Shown piece after piece: positions 1 to 54,550 of a DNA stretch of 64,000 bases. Made by a program: the position numbers and the translations under genes. Numbering within the stretch: the stretch's first letter is position 1; each line of letters opens with the position of its first letter. The DNA is taken from assembly GCA_050084515.1 (NCBI GenBank), contig CM114271.1, positions 11,098,001-11,162,000 on the forward strand, written 5' to 3'. Below the pieces are notes generated by a model, which was not told the origin of the DNA, did not search any database, and worked only from the letters and a program-made list of their open reading frames with translations. This stretch comes from Blasia pusilla (lineage: Eukaryota).

Positions 1-2131
1 ACAAAGGATTGTCACGGCTGCATCTTGGGAAATAAATGTATTTGCCCAAGTCTTTTTTTTTATTTGAGCACCCTTTGCCAGCATTTACAAGGACGTCGCC
101 CAAGAATCCCTTGTACTCTGCCGGGTGCGTCGTTAGCACTTTCTTCATGCGATTGCAATCCTGGATCCAGTGGTGGGTGACATTCCCCTCCGATGCAATC
201 CTGCACATCCAAACTCAATATCATAATTTTTGCAAGCTACATGGGTTCCTGCAACCCGTCAGACTCTGACAGGTTGTCACAGCTCATGGTCGGAATGGTT
301 GCTACGAGCTAAATTTTGCAACCCATCGGAGTCCGACGGATTGCATTCAGATTTGTGATTTCCTGGTTTCAACCCGTCAGACTCCGACAGGTTGTCAGAT
401 AGTTTGTATTAAGAGAGTTGTTTCCGCGAGAAAAGTGAACATATCAACCCGTCGGAGTCCGACAGGTTGCGCAATTTCAATTAAAGCTGCAATTCGATGC
501 CAAAAATCAAACTCCCCTACTCCGATTACCTTCTTGTGTCGGTGAATGCAACCTTTCGGACTCCGACGAGTTGCTTTCAGCCAAAAACATCAAAAAATAA
601 CGACCAGTCAAGCAACTCGTCGAACTCCGACGAGTTGCTTTCTTCCAAAAACATCCAAAAATAGCAGCCAGTCAAGCAACTCGTCGGACTCCAACGAGTT
701 GCTTTCGGCCAAAAACATCCTATACCATTGGTCAGTCGAACAACTCGTCGGACTCCGACGAGTTGCTTTCGGCCAAAAACATCCAAAAACACCGGCCAGT
801 CGAGCAACTCGTCAGACTTCGATGAGTTGCTTTCGGCCAAAAACATCCTAAAGCAGTGGTCAGTCGAACAACTCGTCGGACTCCGACGAGTTGCTTTCGG
901 CCAAAAACATCCTAAAATAGCGGCCAGTCAAGCAACTTGTCGGACTCCGACGAGTTGCTTTTGGCCAAAAACATGCCAAAAATAGTGGAGAGTCAAACAA
1001 GTTGTCGGAGTCCGACGGTTTGCGGCAAGAGGAAACTTACGTGTTCATGGCATGCATTGCCATCTCCATCGTTGCCATGTGATGAGGGTATGGATGTAGC
1101 ACGACTGCCTTCATGCAAAAATGCGCCTCCAATGAGTTTGGGCGCTCCTCTCTAAACTGGGTCCACGCCATGAACCTGTGGTTTCCATCCCACATGAAGA
1201 AATACAAGTTCCGCATCCAACTGAATTCCGTCCCCTCAATCGCCCTTCTGAATTCCTGATCTCTCATCCTCCAGAATGTGTCGAGCGCTTCCAAGTCCTC
1301 CTCCGTAACCAGCGCTTAGGTTCCATGTTCATCGTAAGGCTGAACATAGAATAGAGTGAAGCTGTTGATGTAGGATGTTGTCGATGCCGATTGTTTCAGC
1401 TTCGCAATATCCTCGTTAGACTGAATTTTGCACACGTACTCCATTGTCCGCAATCGGCAAAGTGGAATTCTCAAGGCGTTCTGGCCCTCCATCAGGGACA
1501 AGTTCAATAAACTACATTGAATTGCCAATGAATTGCAACATGGCCCTTCACATAACTCAAAGATGCAAGATCGTTTCTTACCCACTCGAAGATTGGGTTG
1601 ATGTCTTGGCCAGCCAAGTGCTCTGGGACAGTAGTTGGCAAGTCCACTGGAAACTTGTCGATCCGATAGAGGTTGATTTCTTCCGCCAGGCTAAGAGACG
1701 AGGAAGACCGCTCTCCTGCTTCTTCAGCGATGTCCACCATCTCCACGCTGGGGGTCCTCATGACCTCATGGTCAGTCACTCGAACTTCGTCCGTTTCTGC
1801 TATATTGATTGTGTCCCCGGACTTCATCGGGGATATTTCCTGCATCTCAACACTTTTGGTTGGACGGGCCGCGCTTTCTTCAATGGCAATCGCTTTTTCC
1901 CTTCGAGCTTTTGCCAATTCTGCTCTCCTCACCGATGCGTCCATTCGCCTTCTTAACACGTTTTGCAAGAAGCTCCTGCTTGTGCATCTCCGCTGCCCTT
2001 TCCCGCTCCTCGATTTCTTGCTGCCTTATCTCATTGGCCAAACGAGACCTTGGAGATGGTGATGCAGGAGTCCTCCCACCCTTGGGAGTGAAGCTCCCAA
2101 CCTTGCTTGCTTGAGTTTTTTTCCTCGTCAT
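1..2131 (-). pseudogene. ParB/Srx-like(-methyltransferase) cargo gene of MULE element, copy 1 (5' part; runs off the window start; frameshifts/stops)
   Basis: Minus-strand segments MTRKKTQASKVGSFTPK..., ...RIPLCRLRTMEYV..., ...FFMWDGNHRFMAW... are colinear with the plus-strand copy at 5367-7451. A GTAAGT donor (~1039) and CAG acceptor (~201) fall at the same positions as in that copy. Confidence 0.75.
250..1022. repeat. Array of 25-27 bp palindromes (GCAACTCGTCGGACTCCGACGAGTTGC variant), ~52-53 bp period in its core, inside intron of ParB-like gene copy 1
   Basis: Copies read directly at ~548, 612, 675, 740, 802, 868, 932 and 997. Spacers resemble each other (ttcggccaaaaacatcc...). Confidence 0.9.
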
Positions 2132-2399
2132 TGTTCCCGAAAATGCCTCCTATGGACGATCAGTCGCCTTGATGAGGCACCTTGCTGATGTTGCAATGAG
2201 TCGGCTTGATGAGTAGCTTGAATCTTCTCGCGATGAGTCGCGGTGTAAAGCGCCCCTTGGTATCTGGTCAGCCGCTGCGCGGAAGAGCAATTGATATCGC
2301 AAAACGAAAAACTGGAAATGATCGAACCTTTGAGCCATTGGGTCGCATCGTCATTCCGACGGCGATGTGTCGGCCGTTATGGAAGTCTGGACGTGAAAA

Positions 2400-3215
2400 A
2401 TGCTCCGATGGGTTGCACGCTTTCCGCGGATTCCATGCATCCGTCCTCCTGGCAACCCCTAAAAAATCGACAGGTTGCGCGCCTCCGCCGTCTTCGGGCA
2501 AGAACACGGGCTACCAGTGGAACTCATCAGAGGCCGACAGGTTGCACGCTTCCTTCATGTAAGCGTTACAAGGCGAGGCACTTGCGCAACCCGTCTGAGA
2601 CCGATCGGTTGCGCGCCTCCGCCGTCTTTGGGCAAGAAGGCGGGGCACCTGCACAACTCGTTAGAGGCTGGCGGGTTGTACGCTTCCTTCATGTAGGCGT
2701 TACAAGGCGAGGCACTTGCGCAACCCGTCTGAGGCAGACGGGTTGCGCGCCTCTGTTGTCTTTGGGCAAGAAGGCGCGGTACCCGCGCAAGTCGTCGGAG
2801 GCCGACGGGTTGCACGCTTCGCTTATCTTGGGATAATAGGCGAGGTACCAGGGCAACCCGTCGGTTATCGATAGGTTGCACGCTTTTCTATCCCTCGGGT
2901 AACAATGCGACAACGCATAGTTCCCAGGCAACCCTTAGCAATCCGACGGGTCACAACATCTACCCTGAGTTGGACAATCCCGCAAAAGTCCCCAACGATT
3001 GGTTGCCTTTGCAAATGCAAGAGATGTCTCGTGTTTGATGCTAGCAAAATCGACTCAAAAGACCATTGGTCGGCAAGAAGGGGATACCAACCCATCGGAC
3101 TCCAACGGGTTCCAACCTGCGTTGGGACACGGAAACAAAAAATAGAAGTGAGTGCTTCGCAACCCACGTCTTTGATTCCCAAATTCTGCAACCCATCGGA
3201 CTCCGTCAGGTTGCA
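2400..3215. repeat. Palindrome array (CAACCCGTCGG-n-CCGACGGGTTG) in the divergent intergenic region, copy 1
   Basis: Degenerate palindromes recur roughly every 60 bp between the ParB-like ATG (2131, -) and the putative transposase ATG (3408, +). Confidence 0.85.
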
Positions 3216-3407
3216 GCATAATTGAATCCATCATGTCAGACATTCTCACCTTCCAAACTTCATCTTGTCAATCAAATTCCGTCAGGAGAATCTGAGTCCC
3301 TATTAACTATAAATTCAACATTCTCATTCTTATTCTCATTCTCATTCCCAATCCCAATTTTATCCTCATTCTTATTCTCAGTCTCCTCCCGGTGGAATCT
3401 TCTGGGA

Positions 3408-3980
3408 ATGGATAATTATGTGAAGCTCACTTGTGGCAGTCATGTAGCGGCCCTTCCTCAATCAGAAATCGTTCGACCGCAAGCTCGTGAGTCTTTCATA
3501 GAAGTGGATGAAATTTTTTCTCTCAATTCGATTTTTTCTCCAAATTGGAACCATCTTTGTATCCAAGGATGTTAGGATGGACGGTACGGAGGACATAATA
3601 GGTGAGAAAGTCCAACCAATGATTGGAGACCATAAAGTATGGAATCTCCTACCTCTAGCAAATGGTCAATATAGAGTTTACGGCTTGCCTCTGAATTCCT
3701 CAGTTTCCCCAGTAGACAGTCTAGAATTTCCTCGTGCACCGAGCTCTATGTTTGCAACTCGTAGCTCAGTAGATCCGGCATCGACTCCAACTTCAAACGC
3801 TTGTAACAATGTTGTACTTCCTGAAGATATTTCGGATGTCATCAACCTCAAAAGATCTGTCGGACACCAATCGAGCCCTCTGTGCGCCTACTCATTCCTC
3901 TTGCGAGTATCAGGCAATAGTTTGCTATCGTCTGTGGCCTTGAAAATGTTCAAGCACATTCTTATCGATGAGTTGCCAAT
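3408..3980 (+). pseudogene. 5' portion of MULE transposase gene (copy 1), frameshifted and truncated
   Basis: Reads MDNYVKLTCGSH...ALKMFKHILIDELP. The end matches LAFKILKHILVNELPPTYDGN at ~39795, which leads into the transposase of copy 3. Confidence 0.6.
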
Positions 3981-4319
3981 TTCTTCTCCAATTTGGAGAA
4001 GAAATCGAACAGAGAGAAAATTTTCATCCACTGCTATGAAAGATTCACGAATGATTTCTGATTGAGGAAGGGCCGCCAGATGACTGCCACAAGTGAGCTT
4101 AACATAATTATCCATTCCCATAAATTTTGTACGGGAGGAGGGTGAGAATGAGAATGAGAATTTTTAATTTATAGTGAATAGGAAAATAGATACTCCTGAC
4201 AGATTTTTACTGACAAGATGAATTCGGTAGGTGACATTATTTGACACAATGGACCCAATTCTGTTGCAACAGATTCAATTCTCTTGAAATGTGTTACCGG
4301 ATTTGGGAAGTAGAGACGT

Positions 4320-4965
4320 GGGTTGCGAAGCACACTTCATTTTTTTGGAACCTGTCGGAGTCGTGGTAACTCAACAATTAACCCAAGCTAACCGAAGCCT
4401 GCAACCCGTCGGCTTCGGACGGGTTGCACGCTTCTGCCTTACCTTCAAACGCAAACATGGTCGAAGCTGGAAACCTGTCGCTCTCCGACGAGTTGCTCGG
4501 ATACCGCTCCTTCTTGCCCGAAGATGCCGGAGGCGTGCAAACTGTCTGTTCCCGATGAGTTCCGCGGGTGCCGCACCTATTTGCCCAAAGACGGCGAGGC
4601 GTGCAACCCGTCGCCCTCCAACGGGTTGCACAAGGGCCTTGCCTTATGGTGCTTACATGAAGGAAGTGTGCAACTTGTCGGACTCCGACGAGTTGCGCGA
4701 GAAGCCCGCATTGTTAACCCTTGACGAGGGAAGCGTGCAACCCAACGGTCTCCGACGGATTGCGTGTGTACGTCTCGTTCTTGTCCGAACACGGCGGAGG
4801 CGCGCAACATGTCGGTCTCCGACGGGTTGCGTGGGTACCTCGCGTTCTTGTCCGAAGACGGCGGAGGCGCTCAACCCGTCGGTCTCCGACGGGTTGCTTG
4901 CGCACGTGGCGAGATACCCAGGAAGGCGGAGGCGCGCAACCTGTCGGACTCCGACGGGTTGCCAT
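4320..4965. repeat. Palindrome array in the divergent intergenic region, copy 2
   Basis: Examples: CAACCCGTCGGTCTCCGACGGGTTG at ~4872 and CAACCTGTCGGACTCCGACGGGTTG at ~4937; period ~60-65 bp. Confidence 0.9.
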
Positions 4966-5179
4966 TTTTCACGTCCGAACTTCCGTAACCTCCGGCACAT
5001 TTCCGTCGAAAGGACGACGGGACCCAACGGTCAGCCCAGCAGCTAGAAAAGTATAAATAGGGCAGAAATTGCTCATTTCCGGTTTCTCATTTCGCGATCT
5101 CCATTCCTCTCTCTCCCGCGCAGCAGCTGATCAGATACCAAGGGGCATTTCACACGTCGAGTCATCGCGAGTCGATACG

Positions 5180-5282
5180 AGGGAACGAGAGCGAGACGGT
5201 TTGACCGAAAGAGAGCAAGATGGTTCGACCGAACGAGAGCAAGATGGTTCGACCAAACGAGAGCAAGACGGTTCGACTGAAT
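5180..5282 (+). repeat. 24-bp tandem repeat x~4 (gaacgagagcaagatggttcgacc) upstream of the ParB-like ATG
   Basis: Directly visible; gives the repeated EREQDGST peptide in the ORF track. Confidence 0.85.
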
Positions 5283-6609
5283 GATCGCGAGACAATTCAA
5301 GCTACCCATCAAGGCGACTGATCAAGTGATTCATCGTGGACATAGGTGGAGGCATTTCCAGAAAAGATGACGAGGAAAAAATCACAAGCCAATAAGTCTG
5401 GGAGCTTCACTCCGAAGTCCATTAGGACTCCTGCGTCAACATCTCCAAGGCCTCGTTCGGCGAATGAAATTAGGCAGCAGGAAATCGAGGAGCGGGAAAG
5501 GGAAGGGGAGATGCACAAACAGGAGGTTCTTGCGAGACGTGTTCAAGAGGCACTCGATAGACAGAACGCAGAGGCTGAGACGTCGCATGCCTTGAAGAAA
5601 AGTATCGCCGATTTAAAAGAGAGAAAAGAAGCGTGACGGGCGGGCGTCGGTGAGGAGAGCAGAATTGGCTAAAGCGAGGAGGGAAAAAGCGATAGCCATT
5701 GACGATAGCCCTGCCCGTCCAACCAAAAATGTTGAGATGCGGGAAATATCCCCGATGAAGTCCAGGGATACAATCAACATAGCGGAAACGCCAGAAGTTC
5801 AAATCACGGACGATGAGGTCATGAGGACCGCCAGCGTGGAGATGGTGGACATTGCCGAAGAAGCCGGAGAGCAGTCATTCTCGTCTCCAAGCCCGGAGGA
5901 AGACATCGACCTCTATCGGATCGACGAGTTCCCAATCGATTTGCCAGCTTCTGTCTCAGACAAGTCGGCTGGTCAAGAAACCGACCCAATTTTCGAGCGG
6001 GTAAGAGAGGATATGGGTTTTTTGAATTATGTGAATTCATTGGGAATTCAATGTAGCTTATTGATCTTGTCCCGGTTCTGACAGGTGGTAAAGCTGATGG
6101 CACTCATGGAGGGCCACAACGCCTCGAGGATTCCACTCTGCCGATTGCGGACAATGGAATACGTCCGCAAAATTCAGTCCGACGAGGACATCGCGAAGCT
6201 TAAACAATCGGCGGCGACAGCATCCTACGTCGATAGCTTTCCTCCCTTCTATGTTCAGCCTTACGACGAGCATGGAACGCAAGCCCTGGTTACGGAGGAG
6301 GACTTGGAAAAGCTTGACACATTCTGGAGGATGAGAGACCAGGATTTCAGAAGGCAAGTAGAGGGCACGGAATTCAGTTGGATGAGGAATCTGTATTTCT
6401 TCATCTGGGATGGAAATCACAGGTTTATGGCGTGGACCAAGTTTGCAGAGGAGCGGCCCAACTCCTTGGAGGCACATTTTTGCATGAAGGCAGTGGTCCT
6501 TCATCCATTCCCTCATCACATGGCCACGTTGGAGATGGCAATGCATGCCATGAACACGTGAGTATCTTCTTGCTGGGTCGGGACCGTTGTTGGGATGCTT
6601 TTGGCCAAA

Positions 6610-7210
6610 CGCAACTCGTCGGAGTCCGACGAGTTGCTCGATTGAGGAATGGGTTAGGTTTTTTTTTGTCGAAAGCAACTCGTCGGACTCCGACGAGTTG
6701 CTCGACTCGACGCTTTTTCACGATGTTTTTTGAAGAATGCAACTCGTCGAGTTGTTCAACTGACCACAGATTTAATAAGTTTTGTTGGCCCAAAGCAAAC
6801 CGTCGGAGTCCGACGGGTTGCTCGACTTGCCGCCTTTTCAGGATGTTTTTTGAAGAAAGCAACTCGTCGAACTCGGACGAGTTGTTTGACTAACCGCAGG
6901 TTTATTATGTTTTTTGCCTAAAGCAACCCGTCGGAGTCCGACGGGTTGCTTGCCTCGAAACTGTTTTTGGCCGAAATCAACTCGTCGGAGTCCGACGGGT
7001 TGCATTCGGAAGTTGGTTTGGCAAATTTCGCGTCAAATTGCAAGTTTCCATTCAATTGCGCAACTTGTCGGACCCCGACGGGTTGCTATGTTCACGTTAG
7101 TATGTTCAATTGCACAACCCGTCGGAGTCCGACGGGTTGAAACCAGGCATTAGCTCGTTCCTAGAATCTGACCTTGAGCTGTGACGACCCGTCGGAGTCC
7201 GACGGGTTGT
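6610..7210. repeat. Palindrome array in intron 2 of the ParB-MTase gene
   Basis: Perfect CAACCCGTCGGAGTCCGACGGGTTG at ~6924 and ~7115, plus CTC/GAG variants at ~6612 and ~6676. Confidence 0.9.
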
Positions 7211-9373
7211 AGGAACCCATGTAATTTTCTTACGGGTTGAGTTTGGATGTGCAGGATTGTATCGGAGGGGAATGTCACCCACCACTGGATCCAAGACTGC
7301 GATCGGGTGAAGAAGGTGCTTACGACGAGAGTACAAGGGGTTCTTGGGCAACGCCCTTGTAAATCTGATGCTTGCAAAGGGTGCTCAGATAAAAAAGAAA
7401 ACTTGGGCAAATAAGTTTATTTCCCAAGATGCAGCCGTAACCATCCTTTGCTAGTCGAAGATATAGGCCGCAAAGAAGAGCGCTGCACTAGAGCTGGAGC
7501 GGAGGGAGAAAGTATCTAGGTCTGAGCGCGCGAAATTCATCCAAGTTGCAGTATCTGCAGCCACGAAATACACGGCGAGCAAGATACATCAGCATTCTCA
7601 ACCCCGATCTTGGTCCGGAGTTCTACAAGGAGCTGAAGGCAATTATCAAGCGCCAGCGAAAAAGGGATGAAGATCCGCAAGGTCGGATTGGGGAGAAAGT
7701 GTCCCTGGATCGCGTGCATCGGTTTGCGTTGTCCGGCATAAGCGAGTTTAGGAAGATCCGACTAATGAAAATCAGTCTCGAGGGCACAGAGGCCCAGAAG
7801 AGGGCGGCACACCATCCTCCGGGTGTGTCCGACCCAATGATCTCCCACTGGCTACGCCAATGGTCGTTCTGGGATGCGTTGCGGGTTATCGGGAAGTCCG
7901 TGCTGGACGGTCTACAAGCGAAGCTCAAAAGATTAGAGCCCATTCCGGATGAAGCAAAATTGGAAAGTTCTGTAGATTTCGAGGTTTGGCTCGACGACAT
8001 CCGAGACAATCCAATAAAAAACCCAGGATTCAAGACAATGTTCAAGGTTTGCATCCTCCCTCAGGCAGAGCTTGACGAAGAAATCGAGGGGAACAAACGG
8101 GATCAAGCAAAGAAGAAGCGAGATCTACAGGAGCAGACGGCCGATTCAATTCGAGTAAAAGCTGCCCAACGGATGGTCTTCATGTACCTCGTCCAGTGTA
8201 AGAATGCAGGTACCTAGGGAAAATTACCGGCAGCCTTGAAATTGTGGGCTTCGCCGCCTGATGGAGAGACATTCTCCATGTATGACATGGAGATGGGGCA
8301 GCACATGTCTGATTGGAAGGTGGAGAATTGCCCCATTTAGCTTGACTTCAACGACCCTGAAGACATCACCGATAAGGATTTACGAGTGCTTCATGATGCA
8401 GTGGCCTCAGGACAAGACGACATCCCCAATTTTGTGCAGCCTGAAGACTTCTTCGGAGGAGATGCGGAAGAGCAAGCCCACGAGACAGCTGAGTTGACTT
8501 CCAAGGTCGCACAGCCAAAGACAAATCCACACGGGTCTCAAAGGCAAGGCGAGGGGAGGGAAAAGTTATGAGGCCGAGTCTTCCCAAAGAGAGGCTGAAG
8601 ATTCAAGGCCAGAGGCGGAATCGTCCGGGCGAGCGGGGAGAGAGGGTCGGACCAGGTCCTCGGCGAAAAAAAACCCCACTAGAGTCTGAGGTCATAGAGA
8701 CCCCGACAAGCCGTCCGCAAACTCGGGAGAAGCCGAAGCGAGAGGTGCCAGGGTTGTCCCAAGGAGAATACAGTCCATCATCCTTGGGAAGACACAGACA
8801 AACAACGACCCAGACAAGCGGCCTCCTTCAGTTCACTCCTTTACTGGATGAGCTGAAAAGCTTCAGTTCTCAAGCGTCGACACCAGCCATCGATAAATTG
8901 ACAACGCGGGGACGGAAGCTCCAATGAAATGGGCACGCTGCTTGGACGGTGAATGGAGTGATCGAAGAGGTTGCGATGGATCTCTTGATCGCTGATCTGC
9001 CCCTCGGGGTTGCGACTGTGGGGCGAGAATCCGTCGGACGGGGTACGTGAGTGGAATGTGCCGCTGTCTTATGACCAAATCGCGCTATTGTTCTCCTTTG
9101 CAGACGCCTATCTGAGTGACAGGGGCTGCTTCTTGGTGTTGACTAGAGGGAGCGAGGACGATCTCTTCAATCTCCAGTGCGTCAAGAGGTCGCTAAAGTG
9201 GAGGATGGCGCAATTGTGGATCATAAAAAACGAGTACCCACTCTGATTTGCGACGAGTCAGATTCGGGTAAGGCTCAATTCTTGTAGTATAATCTCAAAT
9301 ATATTTTCAAATTCGGGTAAGGCTCAATGAGTGTTAATTTCAGATAGTATATCTCCGTTTTTTTTGTCGGTGA

Positions 9374-9677
9374 GCAACCCGTCGGAAGGCGACGGGTTGC
9401 TAGCTTAGAGCAGCCCATGCTCGGGTGAGAGCAACCCGTCGGTTTCCGACGGGTTGCATCTTTCCCATAAACACAGGGAAAACCGTGGTGTACCTGCAAC
9501 CCCTCGGAACCCGACGGGTTGTAGTTGCTTTTGGTTTTTCCCTATGTTTACGGAAAGCTGCAACCCGTGTGATAGCGACGGGTTGCTCTCAGCGAGCATG
9601 GGCTGCTGTAGGCGACAACCCGTCGCCTTCCGGCGGGTTGCTCCTGCACAAAACAACGGAGAGCTCGACGGGTTGAT
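9374..9677. repeat. Palindrome array in the intron splitting the MTase-like domain
   Basis: About six copies with variable centres (GGAAGGC, GGTTTCC, GCCTTCC) between the GTAAGG donor (~9268) and the TTTCAG acceptor (~9816). Confidence 0.85.
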
Positions 9678-10309: not shown

Positions 10310-11430
10310 GTTTTTTGATGATGAGGCAAAAGATTTCATAGAATAGATCAAATGTACAGTTCCGAGCTTTTTCGGATGGTATAAAGGAGAAGATTTTTTC
10401 GAACGATGGTGGTGCTTGTAAAAGTTTGCTGAACATTTTTTATGTCTTTTCGAATGTGATGGTCTATGTACTCCGCGGACTTCTATTTTGCAACCCGTCG
10501 GATTTCTCCTACTTGCAACTTTTCACTTTTTGACGACAGCACCTTTTTACCACTTCCAGGAAACCTGTCGGATTCCGACAGGTTGCCTGATCGGACTCTT
10601 TCCCTGTTGGTCCAACTTAAGAGGCACTCTGGCGGGCTTCTTCCCTTGGCACCTTCCCCTCAACTCGTAAAGGGAGCCGTAGGCTTCTTTTCTTCTCTCA
10701 GACGTGTTGGATTCCTACTACCTGTGCGATTGCCATCATGGTATTACCAAGGACGGAGCACATATTGATAATGGATGGATGTCACATTGCAGAGCGTACA
10801 AGGTATACTGCCGAGGAAGGCGGTGGGACTCAAATCAGGTTACATGGGACCGTTATGGCGTACCTAGGGGGGGGCCAAGGCTCTCAAATTGGCCAACATT
10901 TTCGATCCCCGTCTACAATCGACCAGAGGAGCCACTTGTATCCCAGGACATTCCTTTTGTACTGTCACCGAGGAGAGTTAGGAGTAAATTTGTAGATAAC
11001 GAGGCTGAAGAAATCATAGACTAGGTCAAATGTACATTTCCGAGGTTCCTTCGGAGGTAATAAAGGACGAGATTTTTTCAACCCATAATGGTGTTTGTAA
11101 AAGTTTGCTGGAATATTTTGTTAGACTTGTGGATTGTGTTCTTTTAGCTACTCAGAATTACAATTTTGCAACCCGTATGATTCCGATGGATTGCAACTTT
11201 TTCTTTTTGCCCACTACAACTTTTTAACCATTTCCAAGCAAGCTGTCGGATTCCGATAGGTTGACTGCTTGAGTGATCGGACTCTTTCCCTGTGAGACCA
11301 ACTTCTGACGCATTGTGGCGGGCTTCTTAACGTTTGGCTCGTTCCCCTATATTCGTCAAACCAGTTGTAGGCTTCTTTTCTTGTCTAAGATGTGCAGGAT
11401 TCCTACTACATGTCGGATTGCCATTTTGGA
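10310..11430 (+). repeat. Diverged direct duplication (~430 bp: ~10310-10740 and ~10990-11430) inside the MULE element
   Basis: Shared blocks tcaaatgtaca.ttccgag, tgtaaaagtttgctg, gatcggactctttccctgt and ggattcctactac occur in the same order in both units. Confidence 0.75.
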
Positions 11431-12115
11431 TTCCCAACCTGTTAGATCGTCGTGGATGCAGGGTGGAAGAAAATCACTTCTAAAAATCTTTCCTTTCTTA
11501 TGGTGAGCTTTCTTACGGGTTGGGAGGGGTCCAGCTTCTCGCTTTCTCAGCCTCAGGATCTGAATGAAGGGACATCAGTTCCTCTTTACTCCAAACAGCT
11601 AACAATCTTTTGGTTCAATTATCCTCTCATGTGTTCACATTTCACAAAGTTGGTCTTGAGCATACACCATTCATAACCAACAGAAAGTTGGTTATGGAGC
11701 AATTCAGGGGAGGCCATGATGCAGGCAACAATCCCTGCAAAAAGAGAGGTTGGCATCCGGGTGGTCCTCCAACAAAAATACCCATGGGCACTGCTTTTTG
11801 TAGACCAAGATAGTTAATGTTAAGAAACTTAGGCTCACATGGAGAGTGATGGAAAAATGTTTGTAGTGGTCTTATGATGTCTACTTTTTTTTCGCCCCCA
11901 GTAAAAAGGAGGTTGTTTTAGGGCCAAATGTGGACCACTACCTACTCTCTTCTAGAGATTTCATGAATTTGAAAGGAAACAAAAATTTCAAATATGTCAA
12001 AAAGTTTTGAAGAGAGGAGGCGAATTTGGCCCTTTTTTTTTAAGAGAGACTCTCCTCTCTTCCTCTCCTCTCTTACTCTCTCCTGCCAGAATACCAGCCC
12101 CCGCCATCGTTGCAG

Positions 12116-13614
12116 GGATTGAACATTCATGAAAATGCCCTCTGCCCCAACATAAGTGGAGCAGAAAGTGTTCATTCCTCCTAGAGGTTGTCACAAGCAT
12201 GCCAACGAATTTCACTTGTGGAGGCATGCGAACAAGACCACGTAAGAGCAATGCTACAGTCTGCAGCATCCCATATCTTCCTCACAAAAGGCATAACAAA
12301 AGGAAGGGGTCTTGATCTCACGAGCTCTATGTCGTAGTATTTGTGAGATCTGGTGATGAAAAACTCTATGTGGAAGCCTTCAACTGGTGCGTAGCAGGAA
12401 CTCCCCTCGAGCAAGATGTACATATTGGTGGGGATATTTGTGGGCGCGTTTCAAGACGTCCAATACAGATGGTGGTAGAGCAGTCCGAGCGAGACTCGTG
12501 GAGACCACATAAGTATCAGGCAAGTGAAGAGCCAGCATGGAGGAACGAATCCAGTGAATGATTTGGATGAGGAAATTACGCCGCCCAGGTATTCGGGGAC
12601 CTCGAACTGCTCCCAAATCCGTGATGGAGTAACTTCTCCAAAATCAGTGAATGTTTTATTTCAAAAGCCCTCCGTTGCTGGAAGTTCGCAACATCCGGTC
12701 GTTGGGGTGGTTCAACAATATGGGATTCCGGTCATGGAAGTGGATTGCAACATGAAACGGTGGCATATATCTCGGAGCAACCCCGGACGTGGACCCACTT
12801 GCAGAGCATGATCTGATGGCATGAGGAGAGCATGCGGCACTTTCCTAAATAAGAATGCATAAGGAAGGATTTGGGCGACCCTTTGCCTGGGTTTTGGGGA
12901 CTCAAAACCTTTGATCGTTTCACGAGGACCGGGGATCAATTGAAGTACTTATTTTGCCCAAATGAATTTTGCGCTTTCCGCAAGTCTTATCCGGCTGCCA
13001 TTGGAGCTCCAAGGAATACCCCCACGATTTGGCCCATCGTCGCACGTACGAATTGGACTCAAGACGAAGTGGAAAATCTTATAAGTGCCGGTTTCAGACT
13101 CGTAGACGGAGGAAGTTCAGAGCATGTTTGCATTATAGAGACCTTTGCATTTCGTATTCAACCCAAGATTGACGTCAACATGTACCCGGAGAAGGTGGAT
13201 GATCTCAATCCACTATTTCTGTTTGAGTCTAGAAATGGGGTGAAGAGAAACAGAATGTGTAGGCCAACGGTGGAGAGAGCAAAGCGAATTGCATCAGGTC
13301 GAGAGGCAAAAATGGAGATCATCGCCACCAAAGATGTCCACAGTGGAAATGGAATAGGAAGGATGTATTGGGTCAGGAACAACACTGTAAATTCAAGTGT
13401 CACAAGGGTGTATGTGGTGCACCTCTGTTGCTTTCCCACATGTTCATGTGATGACTTTGTCCAAAGAGAGACAAGTGGCAAAAGGTATTTCCCTTGTAAG
13501 CACATGTACTATGTGTTGCTTGTAGTTTTAAGAGAGTCGGAGGTAGGAGTAGGAATCCACGAACCAATTCTCTCCCTTAAAGAAGTGCAAAGTATTTTAA
13601 ACAAACCACTTTGA
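12116..13614 (+). pseudogene. 3' exon of MULE transposase (catalytic E region + SWIM zinc finger), frameshifted
   Basis: Contains NISGAESVHSS and the SWIM motif PTCSCDDF...YFPCKHMYYV (CxC-x(n)-CxH). Closely similar to 42310-43819. Confidence 0.85.
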
Positions 13615-15019
13615 GGATGCAAAATGAGGTTTTAGACTGTACTTTCATTTTTCCAGAACCTTCACTTTGAGCTTGAACTCTATTCAGCCGAGGGCAAATG
13701 ATAGATTTTTTTCCAGACCTTGGATGGAAAAAGTGATTGGTTCCACACTTATGATTCCATTGATTTTTCAGTTTTCTAAATTTTGTCCAATTTGCAACTC
13801 GTCGGACTCAGAGGGGTTGCCAAAATGTGGAAGAGGAAAAAAAATTGTGGGAGTGCTTAAGAACTGAGCACAAAAGTGCAAAAAAAATCACACAAAAACT
13901 TTCCTCTCTTCAACCCAACGGAAACTCTCTTCAAATCACAGGAAACTCTTTAAAAAAAATATATCTATTTCGGTTGAAGGTAGTTTCCTCTCTCCTCTCT
14001 CTTCTCTTCCTCTCTTCCTCTCCTCTTACCACACCTTGCACGTTGTTGGGGGCGGCCATTGTTGTGTACCGCACTCCTTTATTTTTTGCTTCCGATGTTA
14101 TGACGTTGGGGGGTACGCCTCTGGAGGCTTTTTGGTTGTCCGCTACACTATGTGAGCGCGGAGTTGGAGTTCCTGCATCACGTTCAGAGGTGATTGCAGA
14201 GGAGGTGATGGACCTACCCTTGGAGTGGATGCTCGGGCCGTCTATGTCATATTCATGGCAGGCTGCAGTTGCTAGGATGGCGGAGATGCCTGCTAGACCC
14301 GCGATAGAGCTTTTAGTCTGCAACGCGTCTTGTTGGATTCAGGAGCATAACCTCTGATGTTGGGGAAAGCGTCATTCAGAGGATTGGGCTTGACGAGAGC
14401 CCATGTGGAGGGTTGTCCATTCCGAACAGAGACATCCTTGGGTGGAGCGAGTACCACATAGTATATTACCCGAAAGGAGGTCGTGGTGAGGATTCGCTCG
14501 AGACATCCTAGAGATGAGTCCGTGGTGCGAGCCAAGGCTATAGTGATTGATGCAGGGTCCTACGACATCTTGGTTGGTAGAGTAGTGTTATACCCGATGG
14601 GATTTTCCTTGGATTACTGGGAGGAGTCAGCGTCCTACAGACCAGGATGGCAGTCAAGTGATGGGCACCTTAGCTCATTATCCATTCGATTCACAAGTGT
14701 AGTGATCGAGCAATGGCCAGGAGAGATGGCGACCTTAGCAGCATTTAGGAGTGCCATCACTTGGCCTAATGATTTGATTGAGGGACATGTCCATGTAGAG
14801 GATACTCGCGTTCCTGACATTTCTATGGAGAGGAGTGTTATGGTAACCGCATCATTCCGTGGAGGAGAGGTGCCACCGTGGGGTTGGACTGAGGAGCTTC
14901 GACAATTGGCATATGAGCACGTGCAGACCGCGTGGAGCGAGGCGTTTGCCACGGAGCGTGATGGGTCTGAGGAACCCGAGGTAGCAATGAGTGCTACAAT
15001 GACACCCTTGGATACCACA

Positions 15020-37904: not shown

Positions 37905-38406
37905 GTAATTTTGGGGATCTCCAAACACCCCCTACCTTTGGAAAAGGATGGTCGGGCCCTTCATTGTGGCCCTCAACCCGACTCTACTTACAGTCATTTT
38001 TGGGTTGTTTCTCAGCCTCTACTTGTGTGTTTGCAAGGATCTTTAGTGCGTCTGAACTGACTTTCCATAAGCTTTCCAACACATCCTTACTCGTCCCAAT
38101 CGCATCTTGACGCTAAAATTTATGGCCATAAATACAGTCGGAAACTCTCAAACGCTAGTGGCGTCCCAAATCTAGATTCCTTCCTTTGGCAACCCACTTC
38201 CTAGACTTGACTCCTCTCAAGTCTTGATCGGCGTTTGGTCCAGGTTTCTCAGTTGCGATCATATCATATGAAATTCGAAGCCTCGCTTGCGTCTCGTCTC
38301 CTATCTCTTCTCCGAGACCACTCCAACGCGCAAACCATCTTAGCGTGAGCCCGCTAGTGTTCCGATGTTCCGCTTTGGCACTCGTTTGGTCATGAGGGTC
38401 GCAACA
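37905..38406 (-). mobile_element. Truncated LTR of the ~1-kb family abutting MULE copy 3
   Basis: Minus strand begins TGTTGCGACCCTCATGACCAAACGAGTGCCAAAGCGGAACATC, matching 45354 onward. Confidence 0.75.
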
Positions 38407-39789
38407 CTTTTCTTCATGGCCTTCGATGCCTCAACCTCGGCATTTTGCTTGGAGAGCTCCTCTAGAGCACGTTTTGCTAGAACCTCGTGCCTGTGCATAT
38501 TTGCTTCCCTTTCCCGCTCCTCTATTTCTTGTTGCCTTATCTCATTCGCTGAACGAGGACCTGGAGATGGTGACCCAGGAGTCCTGATGAACTTGGGAGA
38601 GATGCTCCCTACCTTGGTTGCTTGTGTTTTCTTTCTCGTCATGGTGCACGTTGGGTCAATTCTTCCTCCTCGACAGTCTAATCAGCTCCTGTGCACGATA
38701 GATCCCTCGAAGCGTTTCGTGATGAAGCCCGTGACCCTTCAGAGGATGGGCTTGCCGAAGTCGAACCCTAGAAGCGTCGGGTGCTGGATCGTCGTAACCT
38801 TCCAGCGAAGGGATGAATGTAACCGATTTTGGTAGCGGAAAGGTAACGTCAACTGCCGCGAGGAAGAGCACATGAAATCGCGAAATGAAAAACGGAAATG
38901 GGCAAAATCTCAGTCTTTTATACTTTTCGAGCCGTTGAGCTGACCGTTGGGTCATTTGGTCATACCAACGGTAACGTGTCGGCCGTTATGGAACTTTGCA
39001 CCTGGGAACCCGGGCAACCCGTTGGTCTCCGATGGGTTGCACGCTTCCCTTGTCTTGGGGGTGGGAGGCGAGGTACCCAGGCAACCTGTTGGAGACCGAT
39101 GGGTTGCACGCATCCCTCATCCTCGGGTAACAAGGCGAGGTACCCACGCAACCCATCGGAGGCCGACGAGATGCACACTTTCCTCGTCTTGGGGTAACAA
39201 GGGGAGGTACCCTAGCAACCTTTCCGAGACCGACGGGTTGCACGCTTCCCTCGTCCTCGGGTAGCAAGGCGAGGTACCAGCCAACCCGTCGGAGACCGAC
39301 GGGTTGCACACTTCCCTCGTCTAGGGACAACAAGGCGACGTACCCGCGCAACTTGTCGGAGACTGATGGGTTGCACGCTTCCCTCATCTTGGGGTAATAA
39401 GGTTAGGTACCCGGGCAACCCCTTGGAGACCAACGGGTTGCACGCTTCCCTCGTCCTCGTGTAATAAGGCGAAAAAGCATAGTCCTGAGGCAACCCGTTG
39501 AGCTCCGACGCGTTACAAGATCTACCATGGGTTGGACACTTCTCACCATACGGCGAAACTGCACTCACGGTTTGCACGATTCATTGGACAAGAGAAATCG
39601 ACGCGAGATCCCCCCCACAACTCGGTTACCTCCAAAAGGGAGAGCGAGGTTAGGTGCCTTTCCAACCCGTCGCGGTCCCCAAAGGGTTGCCGTAGCAAAT
39701 CCATGCGAGGTCTCGTGGATCCTGACTCCAATCAGACAAGTCAGACAAGCAAGGGGTACCAACCCAACGGTCTTCGACGGATTGTTTGC

Positions 39790-42700: not shown

Positions 42701-43819
42701 CCAGATAAGTATCTTGACTTCAGGCAAGTGAAGAGGCACCATCGAGGAACAAACCCAGTGATTGATTTGGATGAAGAAATTATGCCGCCCAGGTATTCGG
42801 AGACCACAGATTGCTCCCAACTCCGAGTTGCAGTAACTTCTCCAAAATCAGTGAATGTTTTATTTCAAAAGCCCTCTGTTGCTGGAATTTTGCAACATCC
42901 GATCGTTGGGGTGGTTCAACAATATGGGATTCCGGTCATCGAGGTGGATTGCAAACTCAAAAGGTGGCATATATCTCGGAGCAACCCTAGACCAGTACCC
43001 ACTTGCAAGGCCGGATGTGATGGCATTAGGAGAGCATACGACACTTTCCTAAATAAGAACTGTACAAGGACTGGACGACCACTGCCTAGATTTTAGGGAG
43101 TCAAAACCTTTGATCGTTTCACGAGGACTAGGGATCAATTGAAGTACTTCTTCTACCCAAATGAATCTTGCACTTTCCAAAAGTCTTATCCGGCTGCCAT
43201 TGGAGCTCTAGGTAATACCCCCACGATTTGGCCCATTTCCGCAGGTTCGAATTGCACTCAGGATAAAGTGGACAATCTTACAAGTTCCAATTTCAGAGTC
43301 GCAGACGGAGGAAGTTTGGAGCATGTTCGCATTACAGAGACCTTCGCATTTCGTATTCAACCCAAGATTGATGTCAACATGTACCCAGAGAAGGTGGATG
43401 ATCTCAATCCACTATTTCTATTTGAGTCTAGAAATGGGGTGAAGAGAAACAGAATGTGTAGGCCAACGGTGGAGAGAGCAAAGCGAATCGCATAAGCTCG
43501 GGAGGCAAACATGGAAATCATCGCCACAAAAGATGTCTAGAGTGGCAATGGAATAGGAACAGGAAGGATGTATTGGGTCAGGAACAAAATTGTAAATTCA
43601 AGTGTCACAGGGGTGTATGTGGTGCACATCTGTTGCTTTCCCACATGTTCTTGTGATGACTTTGTCCAAAGAGAGACAAGTGGGAAAAGGTATTTCCCTT
43701 GCAAGCACATGTATTATGTGTTGCTTGTAGTTTTAAGAGAGTCGGAGGTAGGAGTAGGAATCCACCAACCAATTCTGTCCCTCAAAGAAGTGCAAAGTAT
43801 TTTAAACAAACCACTTTGA
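39790..43819 (+). pseudogene. Mutator-like (MULE) transposase: GCM/WRKY-like zinc-binding domain, DDE core, SWIM finger; intron 41281-42309
   Basis: RQCVGAMECRSLSCPYL...CPHCQASLFCVGAC...RLALHV..HIHP; WVSFDICYR (D1); YGFMVHN (D2 position, mutated); ERSDAFHWQQS (C/D-xx-H); NISGAESVH (E); PTCSCDDF..CKHMYYV (SWIM). Multiple stops and frameshifts. Confidence 0.85.
41388..42252. repeat. Degenerate palindrome array filling the transposase intron
   Basis: Repeated gcaacc(c/g)gtc....cgac(a/g)ggttgc between the GTGAGT donor (41281) and the TGCAG acceptor (42309). Confidence 0.85.
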
Positions 43820-44217
43820 GGATGAAAAATGAGGTCTTAGATTGTACTTTCATTTGCTAGAACCTTCACTTTGAGCTTGAACTCTATTCAGCCCAAGGCA
43901 AATGATAGATTTTTTCCGGACGATGGAAAAAGTGATTTGTTCCACATTTATGATTTCACTGATTTTTTAGTTTTTTAAATTTTGTGCAAATTGCAAACCG
44001 TCGGATTCAGATGGGTTGCCAAAATGTGGAAGAGGAAAAAAAAATCAGTGGGACTGCCTAAGCATTGAGAACAAAAGTGCAAAAAAATTCACAAAAAAAC
44101 TTTCCTCTCTTCAACCCAACAGAAACTCTCTTCAAATCACATGAAACTCTCTTAAAAAAAAAGTATCTCTTTGGGTTAAAGTTAGTTTCCTCTCTTCCTC
44201 TCCTCTTACCACTCCTC

Positions 44218-44370
44218 CATCCTTGTTTGACTCCAGTGTTGGAAGATAAAGTTTTAGATTTACCCCTCTTAATGGCAATCTGTGCAAACACCTGAGCATA
44301 TAAGACCTTGATTGTTGTAATTTGTTGTGATGGGACACCCAACTCTTCATATAAGCACAAAATTTCTAGC
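44218..44370 (-). mobile_element. Non-LTR (LINE) reverse transcriptase fragment
   Basis: LYEELGVPSQQITTIKVLY...SNTGVKQG, the conserved region preceding RT motif GV.QG. Confidence 0.6.
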
Positions 44371-45345: not shown

Positions 45346-45353
45346 GGAACAAT

Positions 45354-54514: not shown

Positions 54515-54546
<32 letters not shown>
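54515..54546. repeat. (CT)n microsatellite; (AG)n directly 5' of the oxidoreductase ATG
   Basis: Directly visible. Confidence 0.95.

Positions 54547-54550
<4 letters not shown>

What the first reader, a model, noticed from the sequence alone, without database searches (positions are those of the whole stretch)
250..9677. Dozens of 25-27 bp palindromes in the element's non-coding DNA: candidate parS-like or VANC-like target arrays
Seen: CAACCCGTCGGA-G-TCCGACGGGTTG and variants form arrays in the divergent promoter region (2400-3215, 4320-4965, 39014-39780), in two introns of the ParB-MTase gene (250-1022 / 6610-7210, 9374-9677) and in the transposase intron (41388-42252). Scattered copies lie near 10490-11260, 13795 and 43995. 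My rough by-eye tally exceeds 60. I saw none in host genes or other TEs. The arms are conserved while the centre varies, as expected for a dimeric protein site. Known: ParB clamps load at palindromic parS sites, and Arabidopsis VANDAL MULEs encode VANC proteins that bind motif arrays in their own non-coding regions to remove silencing. Inference: a self-recognition system in which the ParB-MTase (or the transposase) loads on the arrays and marks or protects the element.
Basis: partly seen in the sequence, partly recalled or inferred. Interest (0 to 1): 0.85.

Follow-up and report, generated by a model that had tools for sequence, protein, structure and literature searches.

The report
Palindrome arrays beside transposon ParB gene
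A decayed DNA transposon carries 64 copies of one 27-base palindrome in tandem arrays around its ParB-like accessory gene, and distant relatives keep such arrays with different palindromes, which points to binding sites for a protein the element encodes.

Summary
The palindrome GCAACYYGTCGGA-N-TCCGACRRGTTGC occurs 64 times. Every copy lies in the two copies of one transposon family (window 252-13819 and 39015-44018). None lies in the other 44 kb. Information content drops to background exactly at the 27-bp edges. Promoter, intron and downstream arrays share only the palindrome; their spacers are no more alike than shuffled sequence.

The neighbouring gene encodes a ParB N-terminal-domain fold (model pLDDT 88; VIA Z 9.5 to Caulobacter ParB). 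Its liverwort relatives carry a C-terminal N6_N4 DNA-methylase match just below Pfam's cut-off.

New here: 9 of 26 distinct metagenome loci encoding relatives (25-34% identity) also hold at least 3 palindromes close to the ParB-like exon. At least five different palindrome sequences occur, and they follow the protein clades.

This argues against a neutral minisatellite and for cis-acting sites of an element-encoded dimeric protein, most likely the ParB-like protein. Binding is not shown. No helix-turn-helix was found, and the window copies are dead and now decay about neutrally.

Tandem inverted-repeat arrays beside a ParB-domain transposon gene were already reported in red algae, so this is a new member of a known, still hypothetical, kind.

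The parts
252..1022 (.). Array of 12 palindromes in the inverted partial copy A' (homologue of the first intron of the ParB-like gene). The period is 64 bp from 549.
   Evidence: homology to 6587-7450
1043..2150 (-). ParB-like gene, 5' exons of the inverted copy A'. It has one in-frame stop.
2405..3213 (.). Upstream ('promoter') array of copy A': 7 full palindromes plus 3 orphan half-sites, period 67/134 bp.
3215..4320 (.). Centre of the large inverted duplication (1-3549 against 3987-7450). It holds no palindrome of this family.
4348..4961 (.). Upstream array of copy A: 9 full palindromes plus 1 half-site, period 67 bp.
5346..6557 (+). ParB-like gene of copy A, first coding part. The ParB N-terminal-domain fold is encoded by 6082-6557, with the DGNHR motif.
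6558..7254 (+). GT..AG intron placed between residues contiguous in the liverwort homologue. It is almost filled by an array of 9 palindromes (6612-7209).
7255..9243 (+). Further coding parts of the ParB-like gene (middle region 7492-8214; methylase motif-IV-like stretch 8992-9153). Two in-frame stops (about 8215 and about 8337) mark a pseudogene.
9375..9675 (.). Third array: 5 palindromes plus 1 half-site. The region is itself an inverted repeat (9352-9662).
10491..11263 (.). Scattered sites: half-site at 10491 and full sites at 10561, 11169 and 11239, inside a degenerate duplicated stretch.
12103..14040 (+). 3' part shared with copy B at 89% identity. It carries a SWIM-finger ORF (12853-13614), a single palindrome at 13795-13819, and the end of homology at about 14035.
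38340..38681 (-). Remnant of the first exon of the ParB-like gene in copy B, divergent from the transposase-like gene.
39015..39784 (.). Array of 10 palindromes between the divergent genes of copy B, period 67/134 bp.
39957..43819 (+). Transposase-like gene of copy B. Support is only weak DDE_Tnp_ISL3 and SWIM matches, plus homologues beside ParB-like exons in L026 and L029.
41391..42251 (.). 7 palindromes plus 4 half-sites (partly with a 35-bp period) between two ORFs of the transposase-like gene. The homology between copies A and B starts right after it.
43994..44018 (.). Single palindrome about 220-245 bp from the right end of homology, at the same position as 13795 in copy A.

Best explanation
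The 27-bp palindromes are cis-acting recognition sites for a dimeric, sequence-specific DNA-binding protein encoded by the transposon itself. Tandem duplication multiplied them in the upstream region and introns of the element's accessory gene.

The most likely reader, at about 2:1 over the transposase, is that accessory protein. It has a ParB N-terminal-domain fold at the front and a beta-class N6A/N4C-type DNA-methylase-like domain at the end. A high local density of sites would concentrate the protein on its own element and nowhere else. It could then modify that DNA or control its chromatin and transcription.

Shown: the sites exist, are element-specific, are sharply delimited, are shared by arrays with unrelated spacers, and have counterparts with other sequences in distant relatives.

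Inferred: that a protein binds them, which protein it is, and what binding does.

The copies in this window are dead (stops, about 80% identity between copies), so they are fossils of that system.
For: 1. Element-specific and far above chance: 64 of 64 full sites lie in the two copies and 0 in the other 44.1 kb; shuffles give about 0.
2. The conserved unit is exactly the palindrome. Information falls to background at positions 0 and 28.
3. Promoter, intron-1 and 9375 arrays have spacers no more alike than shuffled spacers (0.45-0.53 against 0.50 +/- 0.06). Homologous arrays of copies A', A and B share spacers at 0.59-0.68.
4. Arms change mostly independently, so sequence rather than pairing is what is kept within the family.
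5. The neighbouring ORF has the ParB N-domain fold: pLDDT 88; VIA Z 9.5, rmsd 2.0 over 95 residues to Caulobacter ParB; ParB/KorB/Noc/PadC fill the top 10. Bacterial ParB, KorB and Noc read multi-copy palindromes (established knowledge).
6. Of 26 distinct metagenome loci with ParB-like relatives, 9 hold at least 3 palindromes of one family near the ParB-like exon: L005, L008, L011, L021, L023, L025, L026, L028, L030. Three more hold 1-2.
7. In the four 17-20-kb loci L008, L017, L023 and L030, all 25 'M8' sites sit within about 2.4 kb of the exon, on both sides, as in the window.
8. Palindrome type follows the protein tree. M8 loci fall in one clade with 100/97 support. L011, L005 and L026/L029 lie outside it with other palindromes. 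The window lies in the other major clade.
9. The sister loci L021 and L025 share a symmetric change in both arms, CAAC..GTTG to CTAC..GTAG.
10. Tandem arrays within 3 kb of the exon hold palindromes in 5 of 12 cases, against 1 of 20 farther away (Fisher p 0.018).
11. Precedent: tandem arrays of inverted repeats beside the ParB-domain gene PAG3 of Plavaka transposons (bioRxiv 10.1101/2025.02.11.637652, section 8 read).
Against: - No DNA-binding domain was found in the ParB-like protein. The matched part of ParB is the nucleotide-binding N-domain (chain residues about 40-140), not the helix-turn-helix.
- Pfam, NCBIfam and PDB sequence searches do not recognise ParB at all.
- The model of the middle region was unusable (pLDDT 48.6).
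- The methylase assignment rests on sub-threshold Pfam hits in one liverwort protein cluster (23.7-26.2 bits against a cut-off of 26.7). Motif IV reads D-x-P-x-G in relatives and C-P-S-G in the window, not DPPY.
- Within arrays, palindromes are clearly better kept than spacers in only 1 of 5 arrays, with a second marginal.
- 14 of 26 relatives' loci show no palindrome family at all. Many of those are short or very decayed.
- Palindrome type tracking the tree is also what plain co-inheritance gives.
- Sites also lie inside the transposase-like gene and near the right end. That fits the transposase as reader.
- Another, unrelated palindrome-bearing tandem array lies at 56899-58580, so such arrays are not unique to this family.
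Confidence: 0.45

Rival explanations
1. The palindromes are binding sites of the element's transposase. It would use them as internal or subterminal sites, or as a transcriptional activator of cognate copies, and the ParB-like gene is a bystander.
For: - A single site sits at the same position about 220-245 bp from the right end in both copies (13795, 43994).
- Seven sites lie inside the transposase-like gene (41391-42251).
- In copy B and in L026 the arrays lie between the divergent transposase-like and ParB-like genes.
- Transposases can act as sequence-specific activators of cognate copies (bioRxiv 10.64898/2026.08.24.746577, abstract read).
Against: - In L008, L017, L023 and L030 all sites hug the ParB-like exon, and no homologue of this transposase is detectable within the 17-20 kb held.
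- No terminal inverted repeat and no left-end site could be found.
- The claimed GCM/WRKY DNA-binding domain was not detected.
Confidence: 0.2
2. The arrays are structure-driven selfish or neutral minisatellites. Hairpin- or cruciform-forming units promote replication slippage and so expand. No specific protein reads them.
For: - Each unit folds as a 12-bp stem with a 3-nt loop at -13 to -15 kcal/mol as DNA, z about -6 to -8.
- Within 3 of 5 arrays the palindromes are no better kept than the spacers.
- An unrelated palindromic array exists elsewhere in the window.
- Breakpoints of the A/B chimera and of the large inverted duplication lie at arrays, as expected of fragile palindromic DNA.
Against: - The same 27-mer is shared by arrays with unrelated spacers, with razor-sharp boundaries.
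- Arms change independently, with few compensatory changes. A structure under selection would favour compensation.
- Palindrome arrays persist at the same place beside the ParB-like exon in lineages only 25-34% identical in protein.
Confidence: 0.15
3. The palindromes are read by a host factor. It would be a transcription factor acting as promoter or enhancer modules, or the silencing machinery acting through hairpin RNA from intronic arrays.
For: - The arrays lie upstream of and between divergent genes and in introns, so they are transcribed. Low RNA read depth covers 1-940 and 6581-7050.
- Each site carries four CpGs. CpG transitions make up 59 of 218 mismatches at 8 of 26 positions.
Against: - The palindrome sequence turns over completely between subfamilies. 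That is hard to reconcile with one conserved host factor.
- 12-bp stems are short for Dicer substrates (established knowledge).
- No small-RNA data were available.
Confidence: 0.1

Closest known systems
Plavaka (EnSpm/CACTA) transposons of red algae with accessory gene PAG3 (Petroll et al., bioRxiv 10.1101/2025.02.11.637652; section 8 read)
   Same: A transposon accessory protein has an N-terminal ParB-like domain. Tandem arrays of inverted repeats lie adjacent to that gene. The authors proposed that the protein binds and modifies its own element.
   Different: PAG3 carries a 2OG-dependent oxygenase, not a methylase-like domain. The host is a red alga and the transposase is Plavaka. Here the relatives are in a liverwort and a fern, and the transposase-like gene has SWIM and weak ISL3/Mutator-type signals. 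I did not see their repeat sequences; supplements were closed.
Sola1-1_Ec32 of Ectocarpus, with a ParB-like plus N4C/N6A DNA methyltransferase accessory gene (PMC12477816; one passage read)
   Same: The domain pair is the same, ParB-like plus DNA methylase. The gene is transcribed divergently from the transposase. Self-binding and self-modification were proposed.
   Different: The passage read mentions no palindrome arrays. The transposon superfamily (Sola1) and the host (a brown alga) differ.
VANC anti-silencing proteins of Arabidopsis VANDAL elements (PMC5735166; passages read)
   Same: An element-encoded protein reads a short motif. The motif is amplified by tandem repeat formation in introns and upstream regions of its own element. 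It is absent elsewhere and differs between related subfamilies.
   Different: VANC motifs are 8-9 nt, not palindromic, and arrayed in one orientation. VANC is unrelated to ParB and has no methylase domain. VANC binding and hypomethylation are demonstrated; here nothing is.
Bacterial ParB/parS, KorB/OB and Noc/NBS systems (established knowledge, recalled; structures matched)
   Same: The fold matches the ParB N-terminal domain (Z 8.1-9.5). The sites are multi-copy palindromes clustered near the gene.
   Different: The site is 27 bp, not 12-16 bp, and bears no resemblance to parS. The motif found 9 isolated hits and no arrays in 596 Gb of prokaryote genomes. The sites lie in 35-136-bp tandem repeats. 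No helix-turn-helix was found. The signature is DGNHR (Srx/DGQHR-like) rather than GERR. CTP binding is unknown.

Membership tests
ParB/Srx superfamily (ParB N-terminal domain) | Fold of the N-terminal nucleotide-binding domain | tested here: met
   AlphaFold model of 6082-6558 has pLDDT 88. The listed Foldseek rows (ranks 1-48) are ParB/Noc/Srx/KorB/SbnI/PadC/serine-kinase chains plus two uncharacterised proteins; best E 2.9e-3, TM 0.40-0.44. VIA gives Z 9.5, rmsd 2.0 over 95 residues to Caulobacter ParB residues 42-137; 17 chains reach Z >= 8.
ParB/Srx superfamily (ParB N-terminal domain) | Conserved G-x-x-R nucleotide-binding signature | tested here: met
   D110 G111 N112 H113 R114 are invariant or nearly invariant among 30 relatives. 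The form is Srx/DGQHR-like rather than GERR (the comparison is recalled). CTP or ATP binding itself is not testable here.
ParB/Srx superfamily (ParB N-terminal domain) | Recognised by sequence profiles (Pfam ParBc, NCBIfam, PDB sequences) | tested here: not met
   There is no ParB family hit. The only hit is DUF1015 at E 0.029. Ten relatives gave none. NCBIfam and a PDB profile search gave none.
Canonical ParB (parS-binding CTP clamp) | Helix-turn-helix DNA-binding domain after the N-domain | tested here: inconclusive
   Structural matches stop at chain residues about 113-150, the N-domain. The middle region 7492-8214 has no Pfam hit, and its model has pLDDT 48.6.
Canonical ParB (parS-binding CTP clamp) | Binding of the cognate palindrome, loading and spreading | not testable with these tools
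   This needs EMSA, DAP-seq or ChIP with and without CTP.
Beta-class N6A/N4C DNA methyltransferase (Pfam PF01555 N6_N4_Mtase) | Profile match at or above the gathering score | tested here: inconclusive
   Three proteins of one liverwort cluster score 23.7-26.2 bits against a cut-off of 26.7 (E 9e-6 to 5e-5), over the C-terminal motif-I region. Of 15 relatives scanned, 12 gave no hit. The window ORFs gave none.
Beta-class N6A/N4C DNA methyltransferase (Pfam PF01555 N6_N4_Mtase) | Catalytic motif IV (D/S)PP(Y/F/W) | tested here: not met
   The aligned stretch reads LDLPTGL, LDMPSGL or FDVPFGG in relatives and LICPSGL in the window (8992-9153). The canonical motif is recalled.
Beta-class N6A/N4C DNA methyltransferase (Pfam PF01555 N6_N4_Mtase) | SAM-binding motif I present in the window copy | tested here: not met
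   The FAGGWGA region of P0148 finds no counterpart in the window (tblastn). The gene is truncated or decayed after about 9243.
VANC-type anti-silencing system | Motif arrays confined to non-coding DNA of the element's own family and differing between subfamilies | tested here: met
VANC-type anti-silencing system | A VANC-family protein, and demonstrated loss of methylation | not tested
   No VANC sequence was compared, and no methylation data were available.
Mutator-like (MULE) transposon | MULE or Transposase_mut DDE domain, SWIM finger, long TIRs | tested here: inconclusive
   There is no PF10551 or PF00872 hit. DDE_Tnp_ISL3 scores E 0.04. SWIM scores E 0.0033, 17.4 bits against 19.6. Atlas leads point to ISL3 and Transposase_mut at 0.87-0.89. 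No inverted copy of the right end is in the window.
Plavaka PAG3-type module (ParB-domain gene plus adjacent inverted-repeat arrays) | ParB-like N-terminal domain with adjacent tandem arrays of inverted repeats | tested here: met
   compared with the description in section 8 of bioRxiv 10.1101/2025.02.11.637652
Plavaka PAG3-type module (ParB-domain gene plus adjacent inverted-repeat arrays) | 2OG-dependent oxygenase domain | tested here: not met
   No such Pfam hit appears in the window ORFs or in 15 relatives. A methylase-like C-terminus is found instead.

The most novel reading that the evidence does not exclude
An old transposon lineage of bryophytes and ferns carries a eukaryotic counterpart of a ParB/parS module. 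A protein with a ParB N-domain nucleotide switch is fused to a DNA methylase. It loads as a dimer on arrays of its own 22-27-bp palindrome and writes 6mA or 4mC on the element, possibly at the GANTC core of the window's site. Protein and palindrome change specificity together between subfamilies, so that each subfamily marks or protects only itself.
Probability: 0.2. Interest if true: 0.85.

Novelty: new member of a known kind. Interest (0 to 1): 0.55.

Why it matters
Only the VANC proteins of Arabidopsis are known by experiment to recognise their own transposon through amplified motifs. ParB-domain accessory genes of algal transposons have been proposed to do the same, without sequence-level evidence.

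This case adds three things:
- a defined 27-bp site;
- a conserved layout of array, ParB-like exon, array;
- at least five palindrome variants that follow the protein clades, in lineages related to liverwort and fern proteins.

That gives concrete protein-site pairs for EMSA or DAP-seq. It also gives a way to ask whether a bacterial-type ParB domain and an N6A/N4C methylase work on eukaryotic chromatin.

Tried and rejected
Genome and earlier notes:
- No whole genome is held for the window, so the genome-wide enrichment test could not be run.
- Earlier-findings look-ups by place, words and sequence returned nothing.

Protein searches:
- Word-based protein searches found nothing for the transposase-like ORFs 40846-41328 and 12853-13614 or for the ParB-like ORF among longer proteins.
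- The protein atlas gave leads only, scores 0.84-0.89.
- The PDB profile search and NCBIfam did not recognise ParB.
- The 'GCM domain' of the transposase gave no Pfam or PDB sequence hit.

Structure and complex prediction:
- The model of the middle region 7492-8214 had pLDDT 48.6 and was not used.
- The homodimer prediction of the ParB-like domain gave no verdict.

Sequencing runs:
- No RNA holder was listed.
- Laid RNA reads were few, mostly under 95% alike, and gave no GT-AG joint. The 'opposite strands' joints at 431/7114, 507/7016, 4696/7086 and 4936/7060 are what palindromes and the inverted duplication produce.

Element ends and other collections:
- No inverted copy of the right end is in the window.
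- The motif has 9 isolated hits in prokaryote genomes and none in viral contigs, with no arrays.
- The metagenome loci could not be searched by Pfam family.

My own faulty steps:
- A first within-array conservation count wrongly included flanking DNA in the last units. One search replaces it.
- A generic 11-nt-arm pattern found nothing in relatives because their arms are 10 nt.
- The loose pattern M_L027 matched at chance level and was dropped.

Compensatory change within the window family was considered and rejected. It is weak: T/T at arm position 6 occurs in 10 sites against about 4.4 expected, and mostly in two homologous arrays.

Literature:
- The search for ParB with liverwort returned 1 unrelated paper.
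- None of the 12 papers listed for the bryophyte, moss and fern terms held 'ParB'.
- The ParB-plus-transposon searches were the ones that found the two algal papers.
- I found no report of this module in land plants in those searches.

Full report
OBSERVATION

The stated 25-mer, with up to 3 mismatches, occurs 38 times in the window. 100 dinucleotide-preserving shuffles gave 0.00. I paired half-sites (CAACYYGTCGG and its complement, each with up to 2 mismatches). This gives 64 full sites, and 62 of them have exactly three bases between the 11-nt half-sites. Exact half-sites number 50 against a shuffle mean of 0.3.

All 64 sites lie in 252-13819 or 39015-44018. None lies in 14041-38400 or 44241-64000. 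Tandem Repeats Finder reports periods of 64 bp (556-1017, 6593-6958), 67/134 bp (2469-2820, 4746-4962, 39008-39472) and 35 bp (41410-41485, 41664-41730).

A logo of the 62 regular sites gives GCAACCCGTCGGA-N-TCCGACGGGTTGC. Most positions inside the 27-mer carry 0.9-2.0 bits. The first base carries 0.81, the centre base 0.21 and the base after it 0.70. The flanks carry at most 0.45 bit.

WHAT THE ELEMENT IS

A self-comparison shows three related pieces:
- Copy A runs from about 3987 to 14040 on the + strand.
- An inverted partial copy A' occupies 1-3549, about 75-83% identical to 3987-7450. The two form a large inverted duplication centred near 3770.
- Copy B runs from about 38400 to 44240.

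A and B share their 3' 1.9 kb at 89% identity (12103-14003 = 42297-44207). Their homology ends at about 14035/44232.

In B, a remnant of the first exon of the accessory gene points left (38681-38340). A transposase-like gene points right (39957-43819), and an array lies between them.

The transposase call is weak. It rests on the following:
- DDE_Tnp_ISL3 at E 0.04, and SWIM at E 0.0033 (17.4 bits against a cut-off of 19.6);
- atlas leads to ISL3 and Mutator-type transposases at 0.87-0.89;
- homologues of two of its ORFs beside, and divergent from, ParB-like exons in metagenome loci L026 and L029.

No inverted copy of the right end is in the window. The superfamily stays open.

THE ACCESSORY GENE

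ORF 6082-6561 finds 145 relatives at E <= 1e-3 among 1.84 billion representatives, 40 of them at E <= 1e-10, with at most 38% identity.

The named relatives among the eight I looked up are hypothetical proteins. Seven are from the liverwort Riccia sorocarpa and one is from the fern Adiantum nelumboides.

None of ten relatives, nor the window ORF, has a Pfam ParB hit. A PDB profile search and NCBIfam are also blank.

The fold does support ParB. An AlphaFold model built on 30 relatives has pLDDT 88. The Foldseek rows listed (ranks 1-48) are ParB, Noc, sulfiredoxin, KorB, SbnI, PadC and serine-kinase chains plus two uncharacterised proteins. The best E is 2.9e-3 and TM is 0.40-0.44. VIA-align gives Z 9.5, rmsd 2.0 Å over 95 residues to Caulobacter ParB residues 42-137, and 17 chains reach Z >= 8.

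The matched part is the nucleotide-binding N-domain, not the helix-turn-helix that reads parS. The signature D-G-N-H-R is invariant or nearly so in the family.

Three proteins of one liverwort cluster, including the 1207-residue P0148, match Pfam N6_N4_Mtase over its C-terminal motif-I region. They score 23.7-26.2 bits against a cut-off of 26.7 (E 9e-6 to 5e-5).

The window gene is colinear with P0148 over three parts: the ParB-like part, a middle part (7582-8508) and a motif-IV-like stretch (8992-9153). It has in-frame stops and no motif-I region. Its motif IV reads C-P-S-G where relatives have D-x-P-x-G. So 'ParB-MTase' is a fair label for the family. The window copy is a pseudogene, and the methylase may be atypical.

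The gap 6558-7254 starts with GT and ends with AG. It falls between residues that are contiguous in P0148, so it is an intron, and the array 6612-7209 nearly fills it.

RNA reads from three runs of the same species label were few and mostly under 95% alike. They gave no splice joint. A DNA run shows that the family is very abundant.

IS THE PALINDROME MORE THAN A MINISATELLITE?

Within the window

The upstream arrays of A', A and B have homologous spacers (0.63-0.68 identity). The first-intron arrays of A' and A score 0.59. Between array classes (upstream, intron 1, the 9375 array) spacer identity is 0.45-0.53. That is the same as for shuffled spacers, 0.50 +/- 0.06. Arrays of different origin therefore share only the 27-mer.

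Within arrays the picture is different. Palindrome columns are clearly better kept than spacer columns in one of five arrays: 4471-4937, 0.81 against 0.60, with 1 of 67 circular windows as good. A second array is marginal: 6612-6924, 0.83 against 0.61, with 7 of 64. The other three are not better kept. The sites average 3.5 mismatches to the consensus. That is what dead copies decaying neutrally would show.

The arms change mostly independently. Symmetric double changes are few and come mainly from two homologous arrays. Sequence, not pairing, is the conserved feature within this family. Single units would nevertheless fold as 12-bp hairpins of -13 to -15 kcal/mol.

In relatives

A scan of metagenome contigs with the ParB-like domain returned 34 loci, 26 of them distinct. 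Most have in-frame stops and are A+T-rich. None holds the window's palindrome. Many hold others:
- L011 has GGTATTGGCGG-NN-CCGCCAATACC 8 times with a 64-bp period, plus AACTTCCACTCGATCGAGTGGAAGTT 3 times.
- L005 has AGCATTCGGCGCCGAATGCT 5 times, with periods of 75 and 127 bp.
- L008, L030, L028, L023 and L021 have 12, 7, 5, 4 and 3 sites of CAACTTTYGG-NN-CCRAAAGTTG ('M8').
- L025 has three sites of a TAC..GTA variant.
- L026 has two arrays with two further palindromes, between a divergent transposase homologue and the ParB-like exon.

These results come, and the shuffles run for these motif searches gave 0.

That makes 9 of 26 distinct loci with at least 3 sites, and 3 more with 1-2 sites. Fourteen have none, and many of those are contigs of 1-4 kb.

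In the four 17-20-kb loci L008, L017, L023 and L030, all 25 M8 sites lie within about 2.4 kb of the ParB-like exon, in one cluster on each side. This is the layout seen in the window.

Of TRF arrays within 3 kb of the exon, 5 of 12 hold at least two G+C-containing palindromes. Farther away the figure is 1 of 20 (Fisher p 0.018). TRF misses the more decayed arrays.

On a tree of the ParB-like domain the pattern is as follows (30 rows):
- The M8 loci fall in one clade (support 100/97).
- L011, L005 and L026/L029 lie outside it.
- The window lies in the other major clade, with the liverwort and fern proteins.

I left out L024, L027, L030 and L034 because their matches were short, and I left out the duplicates.

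The sisters L021 and L025 share a change in both arms, from CAAC..GTTG to CTAC..GTAG.

Palindromy, array form and position beside the ParB-like exon have therefore outlasted complete turnover of the sequence. A neutral minisatellite does not explain that. Co-inheritance alone would also make palindrome type follow the tree, so this does not show who reads the sites.

MECHANISM

My best reading is that these are recognition sites of an element-encoded dimeric DNA-binding protein, amplified by tandem duplication. The ParB-like/methylase-like protein is the likelier reader (confidence 0.45) and the transposase is second (0.2).

For the first: the arrays hug the ParB-like exon in all clades, and bacterial ParB, KorB and Noc read multi-copy palindromes near their genes (established knowledge).

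For the second: sites lie inside the transposase-like gene, and one site lies about 220-245 bp from the right end in both copies.

Steps shown are the existence, specificity, delimitation and comparative persistence of the sites.

One lead: the centre of the window's site, G-A-N-T-C, is the recognition sequence I recall for CcrM/HinfI-type N6-adenine methylases of the same Pfam family. This would explain the free centre base. The chance of it arising in a palindrome is about 1 in 16, and other subfamilies have other cores.

COMPARISON WITH WHAT IS KNOWN

The closest report is Petroll et al. (bioRxiv 10.1101/2025.02.11.637652; section 8 read). They describe tandem arrays of inverted repeats beside PAG3, a ParB-domain plus 2OG-oxygenase gene of red-algal Plavaka transposons, and they propose self-binding.

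A ParB-like plus N4C/N6A methylase gene, divergent from the transposase, is described in Ectocarpus Sola1-1_Ec32. [quoted passage not shown]

VANC proteins of Arabidopsis VANDAL elements are the experimentally shown case of motif arrays that evolve with their reader. Their motifs are 8-9 nt, direct and non-palindromic (PMC5735166; passages read).

I found no report for land plants in my literature searches.

The window motif has only 9 isolated hits in 596 Gb of prokaryote genomes and none in viral contigs.

VERDICT

This is a new member of a known but still hypothetical kind. It comes with new comparative evidence and concrete protein-site pairs for testing.

Noticed in passing
window 1-3549 versus 3987-7450: There is a large inverted duplication, about 75-83% identical, of the upstream array and the 5' half of the ParB-like gene. 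It is centred near 3770 on a 1.1-kb segment that is itself an inverted repeat (3137-3549 against 3987-4345). Copy A therefore has the ParB-like gene on both sides of its 'divergent promoter', whereas copy B has the transposase-like gene on one side.
   Followed up: partly
window 42252/42297 and 12103: The homology between copies A and B (89%) begins immediately after the array inside the transposase-like gene of B. In A it joins the 3' end of the ParB-like gene region. This suggests recombination at an array made the chimeric copy A. That is an inference only.
   Followed up: no
window 56899-57537 and 58132-58580: An unrelated tandem repeat of 151-152 bp carries its own palindrome, CATTTGGAACTAGAGTTCCGAATG. 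No ParB-like match lies nearby. It shows that palindrome-bearing arrays are not unique to this family.
   Followed up: partly
window positions 12-16 of each 27-mer, for example 6934-6938: The core of the palindrome reads GANTC with a free centre base. I recall this as the target of CcrM/HinfI-type N6-adenine methylases of Pfam PF01555. The second palindrome of L011 has a GATC core, and one palindrome of L026 has an ATCGAT core.
   Followed up: no
window 14462-16957: By eye, ORFs just beyond the right end of copy A look like retrotransposon pol: aspartic protease, reverse transcriptase and RNase H-like stretches. They were not scanned.
   Followed up: no
window 5183-5281: There is a 24-bp tandem repeat (4.1 copies, 88% matches) between the upstream array and the start of the ParB-like ORF.
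   Followed up: no
window 9871-14100, run X1: Contig depth of a DNA run of the same species label reaches tens of thousands to about 150,000 over the 3' half of copy A. It is 11-550 over the bins 471-940, 2351-2820 and 4231-4700, which hold array DNA. The family, or parts of it, is very high-copy, and arrays assemble poorly.
   Followed up: no
L026 1895-3786 (-) and 9010-9330 (+); L029 5189-5452 (-) and 10001-10354 (+): Homologues of the window's transposase-like ORFs lie 5 kb upstream of ParB-like exons and divergent from them. This is the same gene arrangement as copy B, in a ParB-like clade only about 25% identical to the window's.
   Followed up: partly
P0067: A 3875-residue relative matches the ParB-like ORF in 10 separate stretches. 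It was not examined.
   Followed up: no
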